64,000 nucleotides of DNA from a virus. The notes beneath the pieces were generated by a model that saw only the letters and a list, made by a program, of their open reading frames with translations, did not search any database and was not told where the DNA came from. This document shows positions 44,777-61,154 of this stretch, one piece after another. A program made the translations under genes and the position numbers. The DNA lies in the IMG/VR virus record IMGVR_UViG_3300047548_000772, positions 64,001 through 128,000 of that record, one strand, 5' to 3'. Position 1 is the first letter of the stretch; each line of letters begins with the position of its first letter.

Positions 44777-47700
44777 TCAAGGATCATATCCTGCATCATC
44801 GTCGGGTGCCATACCAAAATCGGTTGTTGACGGTAAGCTCGGAGACACCTCATTGTTATTTGCATCTTCTTGTATTGGGTTGCTACTTTCTGCTAATACT
44901 GTTCCGGTACCAGTTTGATTTACGGTACCACCGATGCCACCAGCATCGTCAATAGTATCAGCAACTGCGTTATATGCTGCATAATCAAGAACTTGTTGCT
45001 GTTCCTGTGTAGTCATTTCGGCGCCGCCTGCATCGTCGATTGTGTTTGCAATTGCATTGTAAGCACTAGTATCAAACGTTTGTGCATTTTCAATCGAAGC
45101 ACCGCTTTGCCCAATTGTTTGACTACCGACTCTTGTCTGGCTTGATAATGCTGTATATGCATTATTAATTATTGCGGCGCCACCTGTGCCTACACCTTTA
45201 TCAAAGTTCTTAATTGTACCAGACAATTTTTGTGTAAACTTGCCGCCCTTAAAATATGACTTTACTACGTTGGCTGAATATACAATACTTTCAGATGGTA
45301 AATTAGTTTCGCCTGTAGCAGCACTAAACGCTGTGTTATTTTGAAATACCGGAGTCAATCCAGTACCCAGATTAAAGTCAGTCGGTGCGTTAAATCGTAC
45401 TTCGTACAGTACTTCGCTGGCTGCTGCATTAACTGAACCATCTGGCATAAACGAATCAAAAGAAGGGTTTGTGTAAAATACTTCGCTTTGTATTAACCAG
45501 TCTGGATCGCCCAGGATTGTAAGTTCACATTTCATTACATCTTCAGCTGAGTATAAACGATCCGCTAAACTAGCAGCAGGCATTGTTGATGTGCCTTTGG
45601 CGCCTTGGCTGGACTCCCCTGGACGGGTTTGGAACGCACGTTTTTCTGCCCAGCGACCACTAAATGATGCATCAACTGCAACGTCAACACCAACTACCTG
45701 TGCATAGTTATAATTAACATCAATTACAAAATCTAGTACTTCAGAATTTTGTCCAGTGAACCAATAATTGTAAATTTTATGTACGCCACGATATTTGGCA
45801 TTGTTAAAATAAGGGCTTCGTGGCTCATTGATTTGATAAGGAGTGATCACATACTTAAATTTGTAAGCAGAATTTCTACGTTTGCGATCGTAGCCAATGC
45901 GTTGAGCAGTACCTTGAATTCTAAACCACATTGTGGTTGCCACTGGTTGTTGTTTTTTAGCTTGTTGTGTGTTTTGATCGTAAACGATTGTTTGTTGGTT
46001 AGTAATAAAACTACTGTTTCTTAGAGCTAAATCAATTAACTGAACAACTTGTGTGCCAGCAGTAATATTGTAATTCTTGGTGTTCTTATCGTAACTATTC
46101 TTACTCATAAGAAGTCGCTGACTAGCATTAGTTGATTTTTGCATTGGTGCATTGGTTTTATCTTGCGTGCCTTGCTTAATCAACGTTGCATCAATTAACC
46201 CTGGTAAGTTGTATAATTGAATTTCGTATTGATCTGCAATTTCTTGCTGACCTTTTTTAACAAGATCTTGTTGGTGTTGATTTAGTGCTGCGGCTAAACC
46301 TTGTGTTACTGTTTGTGTTGCTCCAGCAGCGGTGGCTTTCTGCGGTGCCGTGGTTGTGGTATTAGTTGTAGGGGCAGCTCCTGTAACCGGAGCTGCGCTG
46401 GCCGCAGCAGCAGCTGGTGCTGAACCTGTGGGTGTAGTTGTGGTATTAGCCTGTGTTTGTTGATCGGTCGAATACGCTACTGGTCCATTGAACAGAGTTT
46501 TTAAATCAGGAGCAACCAACTCAAAGTTAAACGGAATAGTACCACCAAAGGTGCTACTAAACATAGTGTTAGATTGGGTAACTACTGCAGTCACATCGTA
46601 TTCAACACCCTTGCTGCTAATCTGATATTGCAAATCACCAATGGTAAAAGGGATCCACTTTTCTGAAATGGCATTCTTGTCAGATCCAAAGAACGATGAG
46701 TTCAATCCTAACTGTTCACCGGTAACCAATTTTCCTTCTTGGTCGTATCCGTAAAATCTAATAATCATCACATAGTTTTGATTAATTGCAGTTGACGGAA
46801 CATTACCTAATTTTGAGTATTCACGAACAGCACGATCAAGTCGATTCAACAAAGTAATACCGTTTACTTCGCTAATACGAAATTTCATTTTTGTAACGTT
46901 GTGTGCAGCGCCAGTGCCTTGAGTTCCGACAAGGCTTTCTAATTCAATGTCGTCGATATAAAAGTCGACATCAAAGTATCGATTACGCTGGTTTGCAACT
47001 GTACTGCTATTGATGCCTCCGCTTTGAATAATCAGTGAATTTGGAGGGAACGCAATCTTTTGTCCATTAATGATTGCTTGGTTTTCTGCTTCGCTCAACA
47101 TATAGATTGAAATGCTATAAGTTTGCGATGATAAACTAGCCAACTTATTAGGTGTGGCAACAATTGGTGCTGTAAACCCAGGAGGAATCACCGGGCGGCC
47201 GCTGCCACCAATGCTAGTAGTTGTGCCGATTGATGTTTTAAATTGATTAATCCAGTCGTCGGGCGCAGCACAAACTCCGTTTTGAATTGCCGATGCTGGA
47301 ACTGGAACTCGTGCGCCACCAACATCTTGTGATGCGCCGCCGGTGCCGTTTGGTCCAAGGTCTGTGTTATTAGATAAGTCAGTACGTTCAGCATTTGAAT
47401 CATTGCTAGCACTTGATCTCGGTATTACATTATCTTCGTTGTCAATTACTAAAGGATTTGCAGGAGGGTTTTGTACGTCGGCACTTTCTGCGTTAACAGC
47501 CTGTTGTTCTTGAACAATAGCACCGGCAGAATCATCAGACAACGCTTGTGTTGATTGTACTGTTCTTGACGTAAACTCGCCTTCGGATGCTTGCAACATC
47601 AATGTAGTCGATGTATTGCGAAGATCATTAATACCCGAGGTTAACTTAAAATAAGTTTGTTCTAATGAAGTAACATCAGCCTGGCGTCCAGGTGTGTCGG

Positions 47701-57810: not shown

Positions 57811-58326
57811 TTGACAAGCCCAAGTAAAGCCAAAGGAAACTCGTTTGAACGTCAAACTGCAGATTTTTTAACAAATCTCTATGGAGAGAAGTTTATTCGT
57901 GCACCCGGCTCAGGCGCTTATGTAGGCGGTAAAAATACTCATCGTAAACAACTGTTGCACGAAGGACAAATACGCAACTTTAAAGGGGACATTGTTCCAG
58001 GACAAAGTTTTCCTAAGATGAATGCTGAGTGCAAAAGTTACAAAGAATTTCCATTTCATCAATTATTCTCTGGCGAAGTAAAACTATTAGAATCATGGAT
58101 TGATCAATGTATGGACGTTGCTGACGAGGGCGACTTCAACATTATATTCATGAAATTCAATCGCAAAGGCACTTACGTAGCCATCCAGGCACAACCCAAT
58201 CAAACAGAACTATTTTTTACAAGACACTTTAACTACGCTTCTAAAAAACACGGGCATTGGTTCATTATGGACCATGATTTATTTTTTGAACTAAACGAAG
58301 ACACAGTACGAGAGTTATGTCAGTGA
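57811..58326 (+). CDS. PD-(D/E)XK Holliday-junction resolvase-like nuclease
   Basis: SKAKGNSFER...GDIV...ECKSYK (Hjc-like). TTG start at 57811 preferred. Confidence 0.7.
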   Translation: MTSPSKAKGNSFERQTADFLTNLYGEKFIRAPGSGAYVGGKNTHRKQLLHEGQIRNFKGDIVPGQSFPKMNAECKSYKEFPFHQLFSGEVKLLESWIDQCMDVADEGDFNIIFMKFNRKGTYVAIQAQPNQTELFFTRHFNYASKKHGHWFIMDHDLFFELNEDTVRELCQ

Positions 58327-59261
58327 TTGTCACTGTTGTAACCGACGGCGGATCTGGTGGAACATTCCTAACTTGGAGTTTGCATTTCTTATCCGGCGCA
58401 ACTGAATACTTCAGTACCGAAACTAAATCATGGACTAAGATTGTTGATAACCCGTTAACATCTAAAAACAGTCATGGCTTTATACCAAATCAACTAAACA
58501 GAATTAAAAATCACTCAATCGAAACATTAAACAACCAAATTAAATTATTACAAAACGAACAAACTAACACATTTCATACACTATACTTTCACGAAACCGA
58601 CGATCCAAACCTAGACAACAATGTCATTGACTTAACTAACAAACTAAACAACAAAACAATTTTATTAAGGTCTTATCATTATCCGCTGTATCACGACAAG
58701 TATGCATCAAGAGGTTATACTGCATTATCCCCTGATGATGCATTTGACGAATTTTGCAACAAGTACTTTAAAGATTCAGCAGAAACTTTTCAAAACTTAA
58801 ACTTAACTAATATCTGGGACAAACGAGAGTTCATTGCATTAAACTTTGACGCATTTAGACAACGTAACACTATTAAAGACCCTGACAATTATTACTACTT
58901 AGACGCACTAGAGCTTTGGACTAACTTTGACATTTCAGTCAAAACCCTATTTGACTACTTGAATCTAGGGTTAGATACCGAACGCTTTGAACATTGGAAA
59001 AACATATACAACAACTGGAAAAAATTACAATTCGACAGACTACAATTTCAAACTTACTTCGATAAAATTATTAACTCAATTATTAACAACACCGACTTAG
59101 ACTTAGAACGATTCAATTTAGACATTCAACAAGAAGCAACAATACAAAGAACGTTACTATACAAACACAACTTGGCTCTAAAAACTTGGCAACTTGAAAA
59201 ATTTATTAATACACAACAATTACATTCTCTATTAGAACCAAACACATACCACAATTTATAA
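58317..59261 (+). CDS. Hypothetical protein, 314 aa, AT-rich; possibly sulfotransferase/P-loop-like N-terminus
   Basis: Long ORF; VVTDGGSGGTFLTWSLHF N-terminus; low GC relative to neighbours. Confidence 0.6.
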   Translation: MSVIVTVVTDGGSGGTFLTWSLHFLSGATEYFSTETKSWTKIVDNPLTSKNSHGFIPNQLNRIKNHSIETLNNQIKLLQNEQTNTFHTLYFHETDDPNLDNNVIDLTNKLNNKTILLRSYHYPLYHDKYASRGYTALSPDDAFDEFCNKYFKDSAETFQNLNLTNIWDKREFIALNFDAFRQRNTIKDPDNYYYLDALELWTNFDISVKTLFDYLNLGLDTERFEHWKNIYNNWKKLQFDRLQFQTYFDKIINSIINNTDLDLERFNLDIQQEATIQRTLLYKHNLALKTWQLEKFINTQQLHSLLEPNTYHNL

Positions 59262-59693
59262 GCACCAGCAGTAACAGCTAGCACAGGCTAATATCGTGTG
59301 CCCTATACCTGGATCACAGATCGCAGGGACGGAAGACTCTTCGCTGTAAAGAGCACTCAACTACTACCCGTGAGGATGAAGATCGCCAATGCCGCGATTT
59401 AGTTGTTTGAATAGGAATAAAAGGCTAAAAAGACGCTCAAGACGATTGAGCACGTTGTACAAGTATGATAGCGTATATTTGTATAACCGCCGTTGTAATA
59501 AGACGGGGATGGAGGTACCGGACAACCGCCTCTGCTAAACACCCTAACGCTGTGTGACTATGCTACTCAGATGAAGTCAATCTTTGCCCAGTGCGGGCAA
59601 AGTGTGACCAATTAATCTAGATGAAGCATAAACGCTTCGCTTTAAAAATAAATGTTGTGAGCGTAAGCGAAACAACAGATCACGTAGTGATCT
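59262..59693 (+). ncRNA. Candidate large structured non-coding element (~430 nt); strand inferred from GNRA loops
   Basis: Longest intergenic gap in the window, with at least 12 hairpins read by eye, including ctttgccc/gggcaaag, gctcaa/ttgagc, agatcac/gtgatct and tgttgt-ga-gc-GTAA-gc-gaa-acaaca. Confidence 0.55.
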
Positions 59694-60025
59694 TATATAT
59701 TATCAGGCCAATCTCTAAATAATGCGTGTTGTATATCAGCAGCAACAAACTGATTAAATGATTTGTGTTTCTCTTCGAGTTCACCTTGCTGTGGTACTAC
59801 TCGTTGGAATGCTTGTTCCATTTGTGCCATGTTGTTAAATTCCATGAGTATCATCCACTCTGGCATATCAGCAATACTACGGAATCCCATTTTGCAACGA
59901 GTAATTCTGTACGATACCATTTTGCCTTCTGATACTAAGTGATCAAAAAACTTCTTCATGTTGTTGACCCAGTCTAGATCAGAAATGTCGCCTTCTTTGT
60001 TTGCCCAAATTGTATAAATGTCCAT
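59693..60025 (-). CDS. Small dimeric alpha/beta-barrel-like protein (resembles DUF6614 from memory), 110 aa
   Basis: MDIYTIW...DLDWV...FFDHL...G....YRITRCKMG...PEW.I.MEF...Q...AF...ALFRDWPD; AGAGG Shine-Dalgarno supports the start at 60025. Confidence 0.55.
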   Translation of the reverse strand: MDIYTIWANKEGDISDLDWVNNMKKFFDHLVSEGKMVSYRITRCKMGFRSIADMPEWMILMEFNNMAQMEQAFQRVVPQQGELEEKHKSFNQFVAADIQHALFRDWPDNI

Positions 60026-60026
60026 G

Positions 60027-61154
60027 TTATCCTCTTTCTGGAAAATAGTCTTGCATTGTACCTTCTCGGTGTAAATCACTAGTTACGCAATGAATCCCGC
60101 CATCCCAAAAATAACGGTGCCTAAATGGAACGACGTGCGGAGTAACGCCAAATCTTTCAAGTGCATCAAATACCTGTTTGTTGTAGTTAAACACCATGAC
60201 ATTCTTTGGGTCGATGATCAACATGTTTACGTCAAAAACTGTTTCTTCAACATACCCTGTCCAGTGTGATAACCACGATTCAACTGTGTTAATTACGTCA
60301 TGATCGTTTTCGAATCCGGGTATCCACCACTTGCCACCGTTTTTTGCTTTTAGTTTTATAAATTCTTCAATGCCTAGCCAACTTTGCCCGGGTAGATATA
60401 CAACTTCCCAGCCTGGATAAGTGTCTGCATACGTTGGTACATCGTATAAACTTATAATCAAGCCGGGTGTAACTGGACAATATGTGCCATCACTGTGTCC
60501 GCCGGTGTTTACAACGTGATTTCTGTAGTCAGTGAATTCGTTGGTAACAATCGACAATCGTTTGTTTAAGTCTTGATTGTAGTTTTCAGTACCCCAATAT
60601 AGATCCTTGCCAATTCTTGCACACTTTGCGGTGTCGGCAAACAATCTGCCAGAGTGTACAGTATTGCCGTTGGCTTTGATGTAATCGAGAATATGATCGT
60701 ATTCGCTGCGATGAAGTTGTGTGTTGCCAAAATCGAATACTTCTTTACATTCTTTTTGTATTGCTGCTGGTAGTTGATTAAACTCTTCCCAACTGTTACA
60801 GTCTGGCCAGCTAGGATCTGCAATGTCAGTGTAAGATGTTCTTAAAAAGTTTGTAGAATAGTATTCGTAAAACGTTGTGCCAAACATTCCTGTGTAGTCA
60901 CGAGGAGTCATTGGTGGTCGAACATACTGTCCGTTGACAAAAGTCTGTTTGGGTAACTCTGGTCGTAGTACTTCTACACCAAACTCGTGTAGTTTTTTAA
61001 TAATGCCTTGAAAGTCTTCTTCGGTTTCAATGGCAATTTTTTCAAACAATGATCTAACGCTGGGTTTGTTAATCCATGAATAAAATTCAGGAGGGTAACT
61101 ACGTCCAACGACGCAAACTTTTAACGGATCCCAATGTTGATATACTGAAAACAT
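60027..61154 (-). CDS. Amidinotransferase, copy 3
   Basis: SVYQHWDPLKVCVVGR, TPRD, GHSD, DVN, WDGGIHCVTSDL. Start at 61154 (TAATG overlap). Confidence 0.85.
   Translation of the reverse strand: MFSVYQHWDPLKVCVVGRSYPPEFYSWINKPSVRSLFEKIAIETEEDFQGIIKKLHEFGVEVLRPELPKQTFVNGQYVRPPMTPRDYTGMFGTTFYEYYSTNFLRTSYTDIADPSWPDCNSWEEFNQLPAAIQKECKEVFDFGNTQLHRSEYDHILDYIKANGNTVHSGRLFADTAKCARIGKDLYWGTENYNQDLNKRLSIVTNEFTDYRNHVVNTGGHSDGTYCPVTPGLIISLYDVPTYADTYPGWEVVYLPGQSWLGIEEFIKLKAKNGGKWWIPGFENDHDVINTVESWLSHWTGYVEETVFDVNMLIIDPKNVMVFNYNKQVFDALERFGVTPHVVPFRHRYFWDGGIHCVTSDLHREGTMQDYFPERG

What the first reader, a model, noticed from the sequence alone, without database searches (positions are those of the whole stretch)
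59262..59695. ~430-nt hairpin-dense non-coding element: candidate large phage ncRNA or origin
In a genome with almost no intergenic DNA this gap folds throughout: gcaca/tgtgc (59281-301); cctg-gatc/gatc-cagg (59308-27); ctctt/aagag (59337-53); caacta/tagttg (59358-405) enclosing cc-GTGA-gg and atcgc/gcgat; gctcaa/ttgagc (59435-51); tacaagtatg/tatatttgta (59458-83); ccgtt/gacgg; ggagg-tac-cgg-acaa-ccg-cctct (59511-33); tgact/agtca; ctttgccc/gggcaaag (59582-602); gaagc/gcttc; tgttgt-ga-gc-GTAA-gc-gaa-acaaca (59653-77, GNRA plus tandem G-A loop); agatcac/gtgatct. G-U pairs and GNRA loops favour a plus-strand RNA. I cannot assign it to a family I know.
Basis: partly seen in the sequence, partly recalled or inferred. 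Interest (0 to 1): 0.8.

Follow-up and report, generated by a model that had tools for sequence, protein, structure and literature searches.

The report
Full-length Polynucleobacter-1 phage RNA, solo copy
The 430-base gene-free gap of this uncultured giant freshwater phage encodes a real, knotted non-coding RNA; only its first third is catalogued (Rfam Polynucleobacter-1, function unknown), and it shows the same 7-letter word twice for a reader that is still unknown.

Summary
Window 59262-59700 (+) is conserved end to end in 91 other distinct viral contigs, and conservation stops at both gene borders. A 101-pair structure with three pseudoknots is 94% paired, and 72 pairs show compensatory changes. 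The first 133 nt (59276-59408) match Rfam RF01718 (Polynucleobacter-1 RNA, 113 bits against a cut-off of 37), so the element is not family-less. The other ~290 nt match no Rfam family but covary just as well. An origin of replication is not supported.

Two heptamers (AGAUGAA at 59569-75 and 59619-25) are identical to each other in 91 of 92 RNAs. The word changed at least 33 times on the tree, always in both copies, and I found no partner sequence.

In 90 of 92 loci a small SegE-type GIY-YIG nuclease gene lies upstream, adjacent in 87. That protein has no DNA-binding domain and is predicted to form a homodimer. This window is one of two exceptions, so its RNA is a solo copy. The protein family also exists without the RNA in five cultured phages I checked.

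Function is unknown. My best guess is a scaffold RNA read by a two-fold symmetric partner. This scan has already found the same RNA on other DNA.

The parts
59262..59700 (+). Whole RNA gene, about 430 nt: the full-length Polynucleobacter-1 RNA.
   Evidence: Conserved across the whole gap in 92 distinct sequences, with a sharp drop at 59698. 101 pairs, 94% paired, 72 with compensatory changes.
59266..59269 (+). 5' leader strand of pseudoknot PK0. In this window CAGC pairs with GCUG at 59343-59346, inside the loop of hairpin P3.
   Evidence: The leader columns covary with the P3 loop (AACGGU/GCCGUU in most relatives, CAGC/GCUG here; mutual information 1.03 for columns 22-122). Only 68-78% of cells pair because the register differs between subclasses. 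Support is moderate.
59276..59408 (+). 5' domain, a full-length match to Rfam RF01718 Polynucleobacter-1 RNA. Helices: P1 59281-85/59297-301; P2 59302-03/59331-32 and 59308-15/59319-27; P3 59337-40/59350-53; P4 59354-55/59408-09 and 59358-63/59400-05; P4a 59364/59378 and 59368-69/59374-75 (GUGA loop); P5 59381-86/59394-99.
   Evidence: cmscan 113.4 bits against a gathering score of 37, E = 8e-24, model positions 1-141 of 141. Helices are 98-100% paired with compensatory changes.
59435..59451 (+). Hairpin H6 (GCUCA/UGAGC).
   Evidence: 82% of cells pair; four of five pairs have compensatory changes.
59454..59487 (+). Hairpin H7, a 13-bp stem. Its loop bases 59468-59474 (AUAGCGU) form pseudoknot PK2.
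   Evidence: All 12 aligned pairs show compensatory changes.
59547..59553 (+). 3' strand of pseudoknot PK2 (ACGCUGU), which pairs with 59468-59474.
   Evidence: 99.2% paired; all 7 pairs covary. A double compensatory change (GCGU/ACGC to GCAG/CUGC) separates the close relatives L036 and L080.
59492..59533 (+). Pseudoknot PK1. Stem a (59492-96 with 59522-26) crosses stem c (GGAGG 59511-15 with CCUCU 59529-33). Both sit inside helix E (59506-08 with 59542-44).
   Evidence: Stem a is 96.7% paired (UA63/CG29, GC68/AU22). Stem c is AU63/UA28. Helix E is 99.6% paired (GC45/CG28/UA12).
59554..59581 (+). Module 1: GUGAC, a variable spacer, ACUC, then box 1 AGAUGAA (59569-59575).
   Evidence: Box 1 is identical to box 2 in 91 of 92 RNAs. 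The local pairing is not resolved.
59582..59602 (+). Hairpin H9 (CUUUGCCC/GGGCAAAG), between the two modules.
   Evidence: 90% paired; three pairs have compensatory changes.
59603..59652 (+). Module 2: UGUGAC, a variable spacer, AUCU, then box 2 AGAUGAA (59619-59625), then a variable small hairpin with a UUC loop (about 59630-59643).
   Evidence: In relatives the stem around the UUC loop varies with compensation (GUGC-UUC-GCAC, CAUC-UUC-GAUG, CGUC-UUC-GACG).
59653..59677 (+). Hairpin H11: stem 59654-58/59672-76, tandem G-A pairs, then GC closing a GUAA loop (59661-62/59667-68).
   Evidence: All seven aligned pairs have compensatory changes.
59677..59693 (+). Terminal hairpin H12 followed by UAUAUAUUAU: the terminator-like 3' end. 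Read on the - strand it also ends the DUF6614 gene.
   Evidence: Found by the terminator scan on both strands. Seven of eight pairs have compensatory changes.
58317..59261 (+). Upstream neighbour: a 314-aa viral protein of unknown family. It sits where 87 of 92 relatives have the SegE-type nuclease gene.
   Evidence: No Pfam or PHROG hit. Weak sulfotransferase-like fold. Context census.
59693..60079 (-). Downstream neighbour: a DUF6614 gene that converges on the RNA.
   Evidence: Pfam PF20319, E = 5e-22. The same neighbour is found in 8 other loci.

Best explanation
Window 59262-59700 (+) is the gene of a non-coding RNA of about 430 nt. Its 5' third (59276-59408) is the orphan Rfam motif Polynucleobacter-1 (RF01718). 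The remaining ~290 nt are an uncatalogued 3' domain of the same RNA.

Shown:
- The whole gap is conserved in at least 92 distinct viral sequences.
- It folds on the + strand into about 16 helices with three pseudoknots: leader with the P3 loop, PK1, and the H7 loop with 59547-53.
- It carries two tandem modules. Each displays the same heptamer, AGAUGAA in this window and R-N-A-U-R-A-W in the family.
- The two heptamers co-change.

Inferred:
- It is transcribed by read-through from the upstream ORF and ends at the hairpin 59677-59693 (about 70% likely).
- It then acts in trans as a folded scaffold whose two identical, unpaired boxes are contact points for a two-fold symmetric or duplicated partner (about 35%).
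- The best candidate partner is the small SegE-type GIY-YIG nuclease, which has no DNA-binding domain and is predicted to be a homodimer. Its gene precedes the RNA in 90 of 92 relatives.
- In this phage that gene is absent from the locus and from the 192-kb record. The RNA therefore either works with a partner encoded elsewhere or does not need the nuclease.
For: Family membership: RF01718 at 113.4 bits against a cut-off of 37, full model length.

Conservation: the 3' 287 nt are conserved at 70-89% identity, at the same offset, in about 120 viral loci. Conservation is bounded by the gap.

Structure: 101 pairs, 94.0% paired against 79.8% in shuffles (0 of 500 shuffles as high). 72 pairs have compensatory changes. 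The covariation score is 0.418, against 0.166 shuffled and about 0.06 with partners slid. PK2 changed by a double compensation between two 97%-identical relatives.

Strand: 94.0% paired on + against 87.9% on -. Terminator-like hairpin on +.

Not coding: every + frame has at least 2 stops; - strand ORFs are scattered.

Read-through: no sigma-70-like promoter within 360 nt upstream. In 87 of 92 loci the RNA leader lies -15 to +18 nt from the upstream stop codon.

Twin boxes: identical in 91 of 92 RNAs, 9 different words. At least 33 word changes on the tree. In 15 of 15 independent pairs position 1 changed the same way in both boxes (p = 6e-5); 7 of 7 at position 5.

Nuclease link: Pfam SegE_GIY-YIG at E about 1e-33, catalytic domain only. 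Present upstream in 90 of 92 loci. Two copies of this protein scored ipSAE 0.53 against a best control of 0.02. That mark was reached by 21 of 30 proteins solved as pairs and 0 of 23 solved as single chains. The runs agree in at least 93% of contacts, pLDDT 89, and the interface is residues 107-139. This may partly reflect solved GIY-YIG oligomers.
Against: No transcript has been shown. Only short contigs from three metatranscriptome libraries match relatives of the RNA, and DNA carry-over is not excluded.

The nuclease link is separable both ways. This window and L040 have the RNA without the gene. Homologues of the protein occur in 520 cultured phage records, and the five loci I checked have no RF01718 and no room for it.

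No protein residue tracks the box switches in 27 close pairs. The closest pair differs only at V8T and L142Q.

No complementary partner of the box was found inside the RNA, in the 3-kb flanks, in 12.8 kb of aligned sister loci, or in the 192-kb genome and its tRNAs and tmRNA.

The pairing inside the two modules is unresolved.
Confidence: 0.8

Rival explanations
1. It is a cis-acting 3' untranslated element of the upstream mRNA. A large folded cap would protect the message from 3' exonucleases, or would couple termination of translation to RNA folding, and it would have no job of its own in trans.
For: The RNA always abuts the stop codon of the preceding ORF. The 5' strand of PK0 lies -15 to +18 nt from that stop, so a terminating ribosome would open PK0. 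No promoter of its own was found. One contig from an RNA library joins unlike upstream sequence to the RNA's 5' end (record 3). A terminator-like hairpin closes it.
Against: The upstream gene is unrelated in this window, and in L047, L126 and L114 other genes are inserted between the nuclease gene and the RNA. The RNA is fully conserved in all of them. About 430 nt with three pseudoknots and twin co-evolving boxes is far more than mRNA protection needs. The 2010 authors found the 5' motif as a recurrent unit (PMC2864571).
Confidence: 0.2
2. It is a programmable specificity subunit. The two identical heptamers base-pair with two copies of a 7-nt target in DNA or RNA. They address the dimeric GIY-YIG nuclease, which lacks a DNA-binding domain, much as guide RNAs address IscB or TnpB.
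For: The RNA-linked nuclease subfamily has only the catalytic domain. The classic Seg homing endonuclease of the same genome carries NUMOD3 DNA-binding motifs. The nuclease gene is adjacent in 87 of 92 loci. The protein is predicted to be a homodimer (0.53 against a best control of 0.02). The box word turns over quickly, at least 33 changes, without matching protein changes, which fits a nucleic-acid reader.
Against: Seven nucleotides is very short for addressing. No enriched or co-changing complementary site was found in the flanks, the sister loci or the whole 192-kb genome. The protein family works without the RNA in cultured phages, and the RNA persists without the protein here. Earlier notes of this scan record that later checks gave similar bold readings 2-3 in 100.
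Confidence: 0.05
3. It is a DNA-level element: an origin, a packaging or recombination site, or the target site of a homing endonuclease. The twin boxes would be direct-repeat protein-binding sites about five helical turns apart.
For: The two 7-bp boxes are direct repeats 50 bp apart. The junction between the nuclease gene and the RNA is an insertion hot spot. The gap lies at a convergent gene junction.
Against: Compensatory changes keep base pairs, including 7.6% G-U cells that read as mismatches on the other strand. Long-range pseudoknot covariation has no meaning for duplex DNA. There is no origin-like skew switch. The 5' third is a curated RNA family.
Confidence: 0.03

Closest known systems
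Polynucleobacter-1 RNA motif (Rfam RF01718; Weinberg et al. 2010, Genome Biol 11:R31, PMC2864571)
   Same: Window 59276-59408 matches the whole 141-position model at 113 bits. The helices, the aquatic metagenome source and the usual position behind a small phage-like gene (GOS11034 / PSSM2_218-like, here identified as SegE-type GIY-YIG) all agree. The function is unknown in both.
   Different: The catalogued motif is only the first ~31% of what is conserved. A leader pseudoknot, a 290-nt 3' domain with two more pseudoknots, the twin boxes and a terminator hairpin are not in the model. The 2010 paper found no copy in a purified phage, and I still find none in 50,697 phage records. Here the RNA sits in a viral contig related to giant phages. 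In this window the usual upstream gene is missing.
GOLLD and ROOL large non-coding RNAs of phages and prophages (comparison from my own knowledge)
   Same: They are large, intricately folded, pseudoknotted RNAs of unknown function that are carried by phages.
   Different: There is no sequence or model match. This RNA is smaller, is not next to the tRNA genes here, and has twin co-evolving heptamers.
HEARO / omega RNA of IscB (OMEGA systems; comparison from my own knowledge)
   Same: A structured RNA of a few hundred nucleotides is encoded directly beside a small nuclease gene.
   Different: The nuclease is of another type (GIY-YIG, not RuvC/HNH). There is no long variable guide segment, only two 7-nt boxes. 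The RNA and the nuclease occur apart. No target was found.
CsrB/RsmZ-type RNAs that present repeated short motifs to a dimeric protein (works-like comparison only, from my own knowledge)
   Same: Identical short single-stranded motifs are repeated on one RNA, as a homodimer with two equal binding faces would need.
   Different: There are only two motifs, the word varies between phages (the window's AGAUGAA has no GGA), and the scaffold around them is highly structured.

Membership tests
Rfam RF01718 Polynucleobacter-1 RNA | Covariance-model score at or above the curated gathering score, over the full model | tested here: met
   113.4 bits against 37; model positions 1-141 of 141; E = 8e-24; one copy in the 192-kb record.
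Rfam RF01718 Polynucleobacter-1 RNA | The model's helices are kept by compensatory changes | tested here: met
   P1, P3, P4 and P5 are 98-100% paired with compensatory changes in 92 sequences.
Rfam RF01718 Polynucleobacter-1 RNA | Usual context: directly downstream of a GOS11034 / PSSM2_218-like gene (supplement of PMC2864571) | tested here: not met
   In 90 of 92 relatives a SegE_GIY-YIG gene lies upstream. In this window the upstream gene is an unrelated 314-aa ORF, and the record holds only a distant classic Seg endonuclease 74 kb away. This context is typical of the family rather than defining.
Full-length 'twin-box' Polynucleobacter-1 RNA (defined within this scan, not published) | A 3' domain with PK1, PK2 and two identical heptamers behind GUGUGAC modules | tested here: met
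   All elements are present in the window: PK1 59492-96/59522-26 crossing 59511-15/59529-33; PK2 59468-74/59547-53; boxes AGAUGAA at 59569-75 and 59619-25.
Known large RNAs in Rfam (group I and II introns, RNase P, tmRNA, 6S, GOLLD, ROOL, HEARO, OLE) | Match to the family's covariance model | tested here: not met
   No hit over 59409-59695, even at E up to 5, apart from an 11-bit unstructured alpha_tmRNA fragment. ARAGORN finds no tRNA or tmRNA in the window.
Guide RNAs of RNA-guided nucleases (OMEGA / CRISPR type) | Obligate pairing with the nuclease gene, and a variable guide that matches a target | tested here: not met
   The RNA and the nuclease occur apart. Only 7-nt boxes vary. No complementary target is enriched or co-changing.
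Replication origin | Skew switch and DNA-level repeats, without RNA-type covariation | tested here: not met
   No GC-skew switch; the AT skew follows gene strand. The covariation is RNA-type and specific to the + strand.

The most novel reading that the evidence does not exclude
The RNA is the address-bearing subunit of a ribonucleoprotein nuclease. A homodimer of the small GIY-YIG protein, which has no DNA-binding domain, sits on the folded RNA. The two identical, fast-changing heptamers pair with two copies of a 7-nt site and so set which nucleic acid is cut. This would be a new kind of RNA-programmed nuclease used in conflicts between phages or between phage and host. The solo copy in this window would then act with a nuclease supplied from elsewhere, or as a decoy.
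Probability: 0.04. Interest if true: 0.95.

Novelty: new variant of a known kind. Interest (0 to 1): 0.6.

Why it matters
Polynucleobacter-1 has been an orphan motif since 2010. This work shows that the catalogued 141 positions are only the head of an RNA of about 430 nt with three pseudoknots, which puts it among the large bacterial and phage RNAs whose jobs are unknown.

Two features make it testable:
- Two heptamers are kept identical through at least 33 switches. That points to a symmetric or duplicated reader.
- The RNA is almost always adjacent to a nuclease that has no DNA-binding domain.

This window adds a natural control, because the RNA is fully conserved here without that nuclease gene. 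Any model in which the RNA exists only to serve the neighbouring gene has to explain that. A corrected, full-length model would also improve the Rfam annotation of thousands of freshwater viral contigs.

Tried and rejected
- Cultured phages. blastn of the gap (E up to 1e-5) and of a consensus-like relative (E up to 1) against 50,697 phage records found no match, so there is no cultured model.
- Cellular genomes. The core pattern hit 9 of 185,579 species genomes. None is RF01718 by cmscan, and about that many chance hits are expected. The bacterial-island relatives mentioned in earlier notes were therefore not seen at this stringency.
- Homologues of the 314-aa upstream protein (L002-L006) have no RF01718 nearby.
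- Reader of the twin boxes. No Watson-Crick partner column by mutual information. Only a wobble-rich match to the invariant U/G-rich 3' strand of P4, in 90 of 92 RNAs, which I take to be compositional. The locus's own word is not enriched in the 3-kb flanks (43 sense and 36 antisense, against 46.5 and 26.6 per control word). An apparent excess of GGATGAT came from conserved Trp-Met-Ile codons in the DUF6614 gene, which this window also has although its box differs. No third co-changing site in 12.8 kb of L036 against L080. No genome-wide enrichment (22 found against 16 expected; reverse complement 9 against 9.7), and no complement in the phage's 32 tRNAs or its tmRNA. No nuclease residue tracks the box.
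- Transcription. All runs that could be laid are assembled contigs. Three metatranscriptome libraries hold short contigs 90-97% like parts of the RNA, but the neighbouring gene is covered too and DNA carry-over cannot be excluded. Stretches without cover say nothing.
- Other readings considered from memory and dropped. CsrA sites: many boxes lack GGA. A codon-like AUR plus A read by tRNA anticodons: this leaves three co-varying positions unexplained. An RNase E site and a self-complementary AUCU-RGAU: both fail for the GCAU and GAAU words.
- Pairing inside the two modules could not be settled. Spacers pair with the tails in some lineages and with each other in others.
- Literature. 'Polynucleobacter-1' occurs in one paper only. 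Two further searches found nothing on this RNA.

Full report
**What is there.** The finding lies in the gap between a + strand ORF that ends at 59261 and a - strand ORF that ends at 59693. The window belongs to a 192-kb viral record estimated to be about 55% complete. It carries T4-type genes: a gp46/SbcC-like gene, a PDDEXK nuclease and a baseplate hub. Its gp46 is closest to that of the Pseudomonas jumbo phage PA5oct, at 51% identity. As an RNA, the + strand of the gap folds with z = -5.0 against shuffles, and the - strand with z = -3.1.

**Known part.** A scan of the whole window against Rfam gives one hit: RF01718, Polynucleobacter-1 RNA, at 59276-59408 (+). It scores 113.4 bits against a gathering score of 37 and covers model positions 1-141. 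A permissive scan of the gap finds nothing else, only an 11-bit unstructured fragment. The family was described in 2010 from freshwater and estuary metagenomes and one Polynucleobacter genome. Its function was unknown. The authors noted that it lies mostly downstream of GOS11034 genes, with possible homology to PSSM2_218 of cyanophage P-SSM2, and that they had detected no copy in any sequenced purified phage (PMC2864571, supplement).

**The rest of the gap belongs to the same RNA.**
- A 20-base core pattern of the motif hits at least 120 IMG/VR viral contigs.
- In nearly all of them the window's remaining 287 nt (59409-59695) align at the same offset, at 70-89% identity.
- In 92 distinct sequences, conservation runs from about 59268 to 59695 and collapses at 59698.
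- RNAalifold and a mutual-information scan gave a structure that I then wrote out and counted. It has 101 pairs in 23 helices. Of the cells, 94.0% are paired, against 79.8% in column shuffles (0 of 500 as high). 72 pairs have compensatory changes. The covariation score is 0.418, against 0.166 shuffled and about 0.06 when partners are slid by 1-3 columns.

**Features that are not in the Rfam model.**
- PK0: a pseudoknot between the leader (59266-69 in this window) and the loop of P3. Support is moderate, 68-78% paired.
- H6 and H7: two hairpins.
- PK2: the loop of H7 (59468-74) pairs with 59547-53. It is 99.2% paired and all seven pairs covary.
- PK1: stem 59492-96/59522-26 crosses stem 59511-15/59529-33. 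Both lie inside helix 59506-08/59542-44.
- H9, H11 (with tandem G-A pairs and a GUAA loop) and the terminal hairpin H12.
- Two relatives whose RNAs are 97% identical (L036 and L080) differ by a double compensatory change in PK2.

**Strand and coding.** The + strand is the RNA strand. It is 94.0% paired, with 7.6% G-U cells, against 87.9% on the other strand. There is no conserved reading frame.

Eleven of 14 are confirmed. ccgtt/gacgg is displaced by covarying alternatives. Two hairpins are specific to this window and remain unresolved.

**Ends.** I found no sigma-70-like promoter between 58900 and the RNA. H12 followed by UAUAUAUUAU matches the terminator pattern on the + strand, and on the - strand for the converging gene. 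In relatives the stop codon of the upstream ORF lies -15 to +18 nt from the first strand of PK0. I infer read-through transcription, but this is not shown. The public runs that could be laid are assembled contigs. Three metatranscriptome libraries hold short contigs 90-97% like parts of the RNA, which is weak evidence.

**Twin boxes.**
- Two tandem modules (GUGUGAC, spacer, A-Y-Y-Y, heptamer) flank H9.
- The heptamers are AGAUGAA at 59569-75 and at 59619-25. They are identical to each other in 91 of 92 RNAs, although nine different words occur (R-N-A-U-R-A-W).
- On a tree built without the box columns, the word changes at least 33 times.
- In 15 of 15 independent pairs on supported branches, position 1 changed the same way in both boxes (p = 6e-5). 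The count is 7 of 7 for position 5.
- L036 and L080 differ by the same G-to-A change in both boxes.
- I found no Watson-Crick partner in any of the places searched: inside the RNA, in the 3-kb flanks, in the aligned sister loci, in the 192-kb genome, and in its tRNAs and tmRNA.

**Context, and what is special about this window.**
- In 87 of 92 loci the gene immediately upstream is one family of 125-149 aa. Pfam calls it SegE_GIY-YIG (E about 1e-33), and it is the catalytic domain only.
- Three more loci have the same gene 0.7-1.8 kb upstream, with other genes inserted in between.
- Only this window and the most divergent member, L040, lack it.
- Here the upstream gene is a 314-aa viral protein of unknown family. 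Its homologues lie downstream, on the other strand, in four relatives.
- The only GIY-YIG gene in the record is a classic 245-aa Seg endonuclease with NUMOD3 motifs, 74 kb away.
- Conversely, the small protein has homologues in 520 cultured phage records, mostly cyanophages, and also Methylophilales phage Melnitz at 50% identity. The five loci I checked have no RF01718 and no room for it.
- RNA and protein are therefore usually linked but separable.
- Two copies of the protein are predicted to pair through residues 107-139: score 0.53, best control 0.02. That mark was reached by 21 of 30 proteins solved as pairs and 0 of 23 solved as single chains. The runs agree in at least 93% of contacts, pLDDT 89.
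- No residue of the protein tracks the box word.

**Reading.** With high confidence this is a real, plus-strand, structured non-coding RNA: the full-length form of Polynucleobacter-1. How it works is inference. The identity of the two boxes through many independent switches calls for one reader with two equal sites, or for two copies of one target. The predicted dimeric nuclease is the obvious candidate partner. The solo copy here and the RNA-less homologues elsewhere argue that the tie is not obligatory. A pure 3'-UTR role, an RNA-programmed nuclease and a DNA-level site are kept as rivals, with lower odds.

**Relation to earlier work of this scan.** A look-up made after I had seen the extension and the twin boxes shows that other agents reported the same RNA on other genomes, usually behind a GIY-YIG gene. 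My results agree with theirs.

Noticed in passing
own genome G000:C1:26251-51106 (outside the window): ARAGORN finds 32 tRNA genes and a permuted two-piece tmRNA (46123-46481, tag ANDEVYALAA) in this phage record.
   Followed up: no
own genome G000:C1:137951-138688 (locus L127:1378-2115): A classic free-standing Seg-type homing endonuclease (GIY-YIG plus NUMOD3, 245 aa). It is unlike the small RNA-linked subfamily, which lacks any DNA-binding motif.
   Followed up: partly
loci L047, L126, L114 (between the SegE gene and the RNA): One to three unrelated genes are inserted exactly between the nuclease gene and the RNA, so this junction is an insertion hot spot.
   Followed up: partly
window 58317-59261; loci L016, L026, L110, L117: The 314-aa protein family touches the RNA in five loci in two opposite arrangements: upstream on the same strand here, and downstream on the other strand in the relatives. 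It has a weak sulfotransferase-like fold (TM 0.48-0.52).
   Followed up: partly
whole window: The T4 late-promoter word TATAAATA does not occur at all (0 found, 5.4 expected by shuffling). Yet many relatives have ATAAAT directly after the RNA's terminal hairpin.
   Followed up: no
window 59302-59332: The bases around P2 (CCUAUAC ... GGGACGG) resemble the 11-nt GAAA-tetraloop receptor (CCUAAG/UAUGG). Many relatives have a GAAA loop on P4a. The resemblance is recalled from memory and was not tested.
   Followed up: no
window 59402-59408: The invariant U/G-rich 3' strand of P4 can pair, with several wobbles, with the box heptamer in 90 of 92 RNAs. This is probably compositional but could allow an alternative fold.
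   Followed up: partly
window 59843-59870 (- strand DUF6614 gene): The conserved Trp-Met-Ile codons read GGATGAT, the same as the box word of one RNA lineage. I judge this a coincidence, because the window keeps the codons while its box is AGAUGAA.
   Followed up: yes
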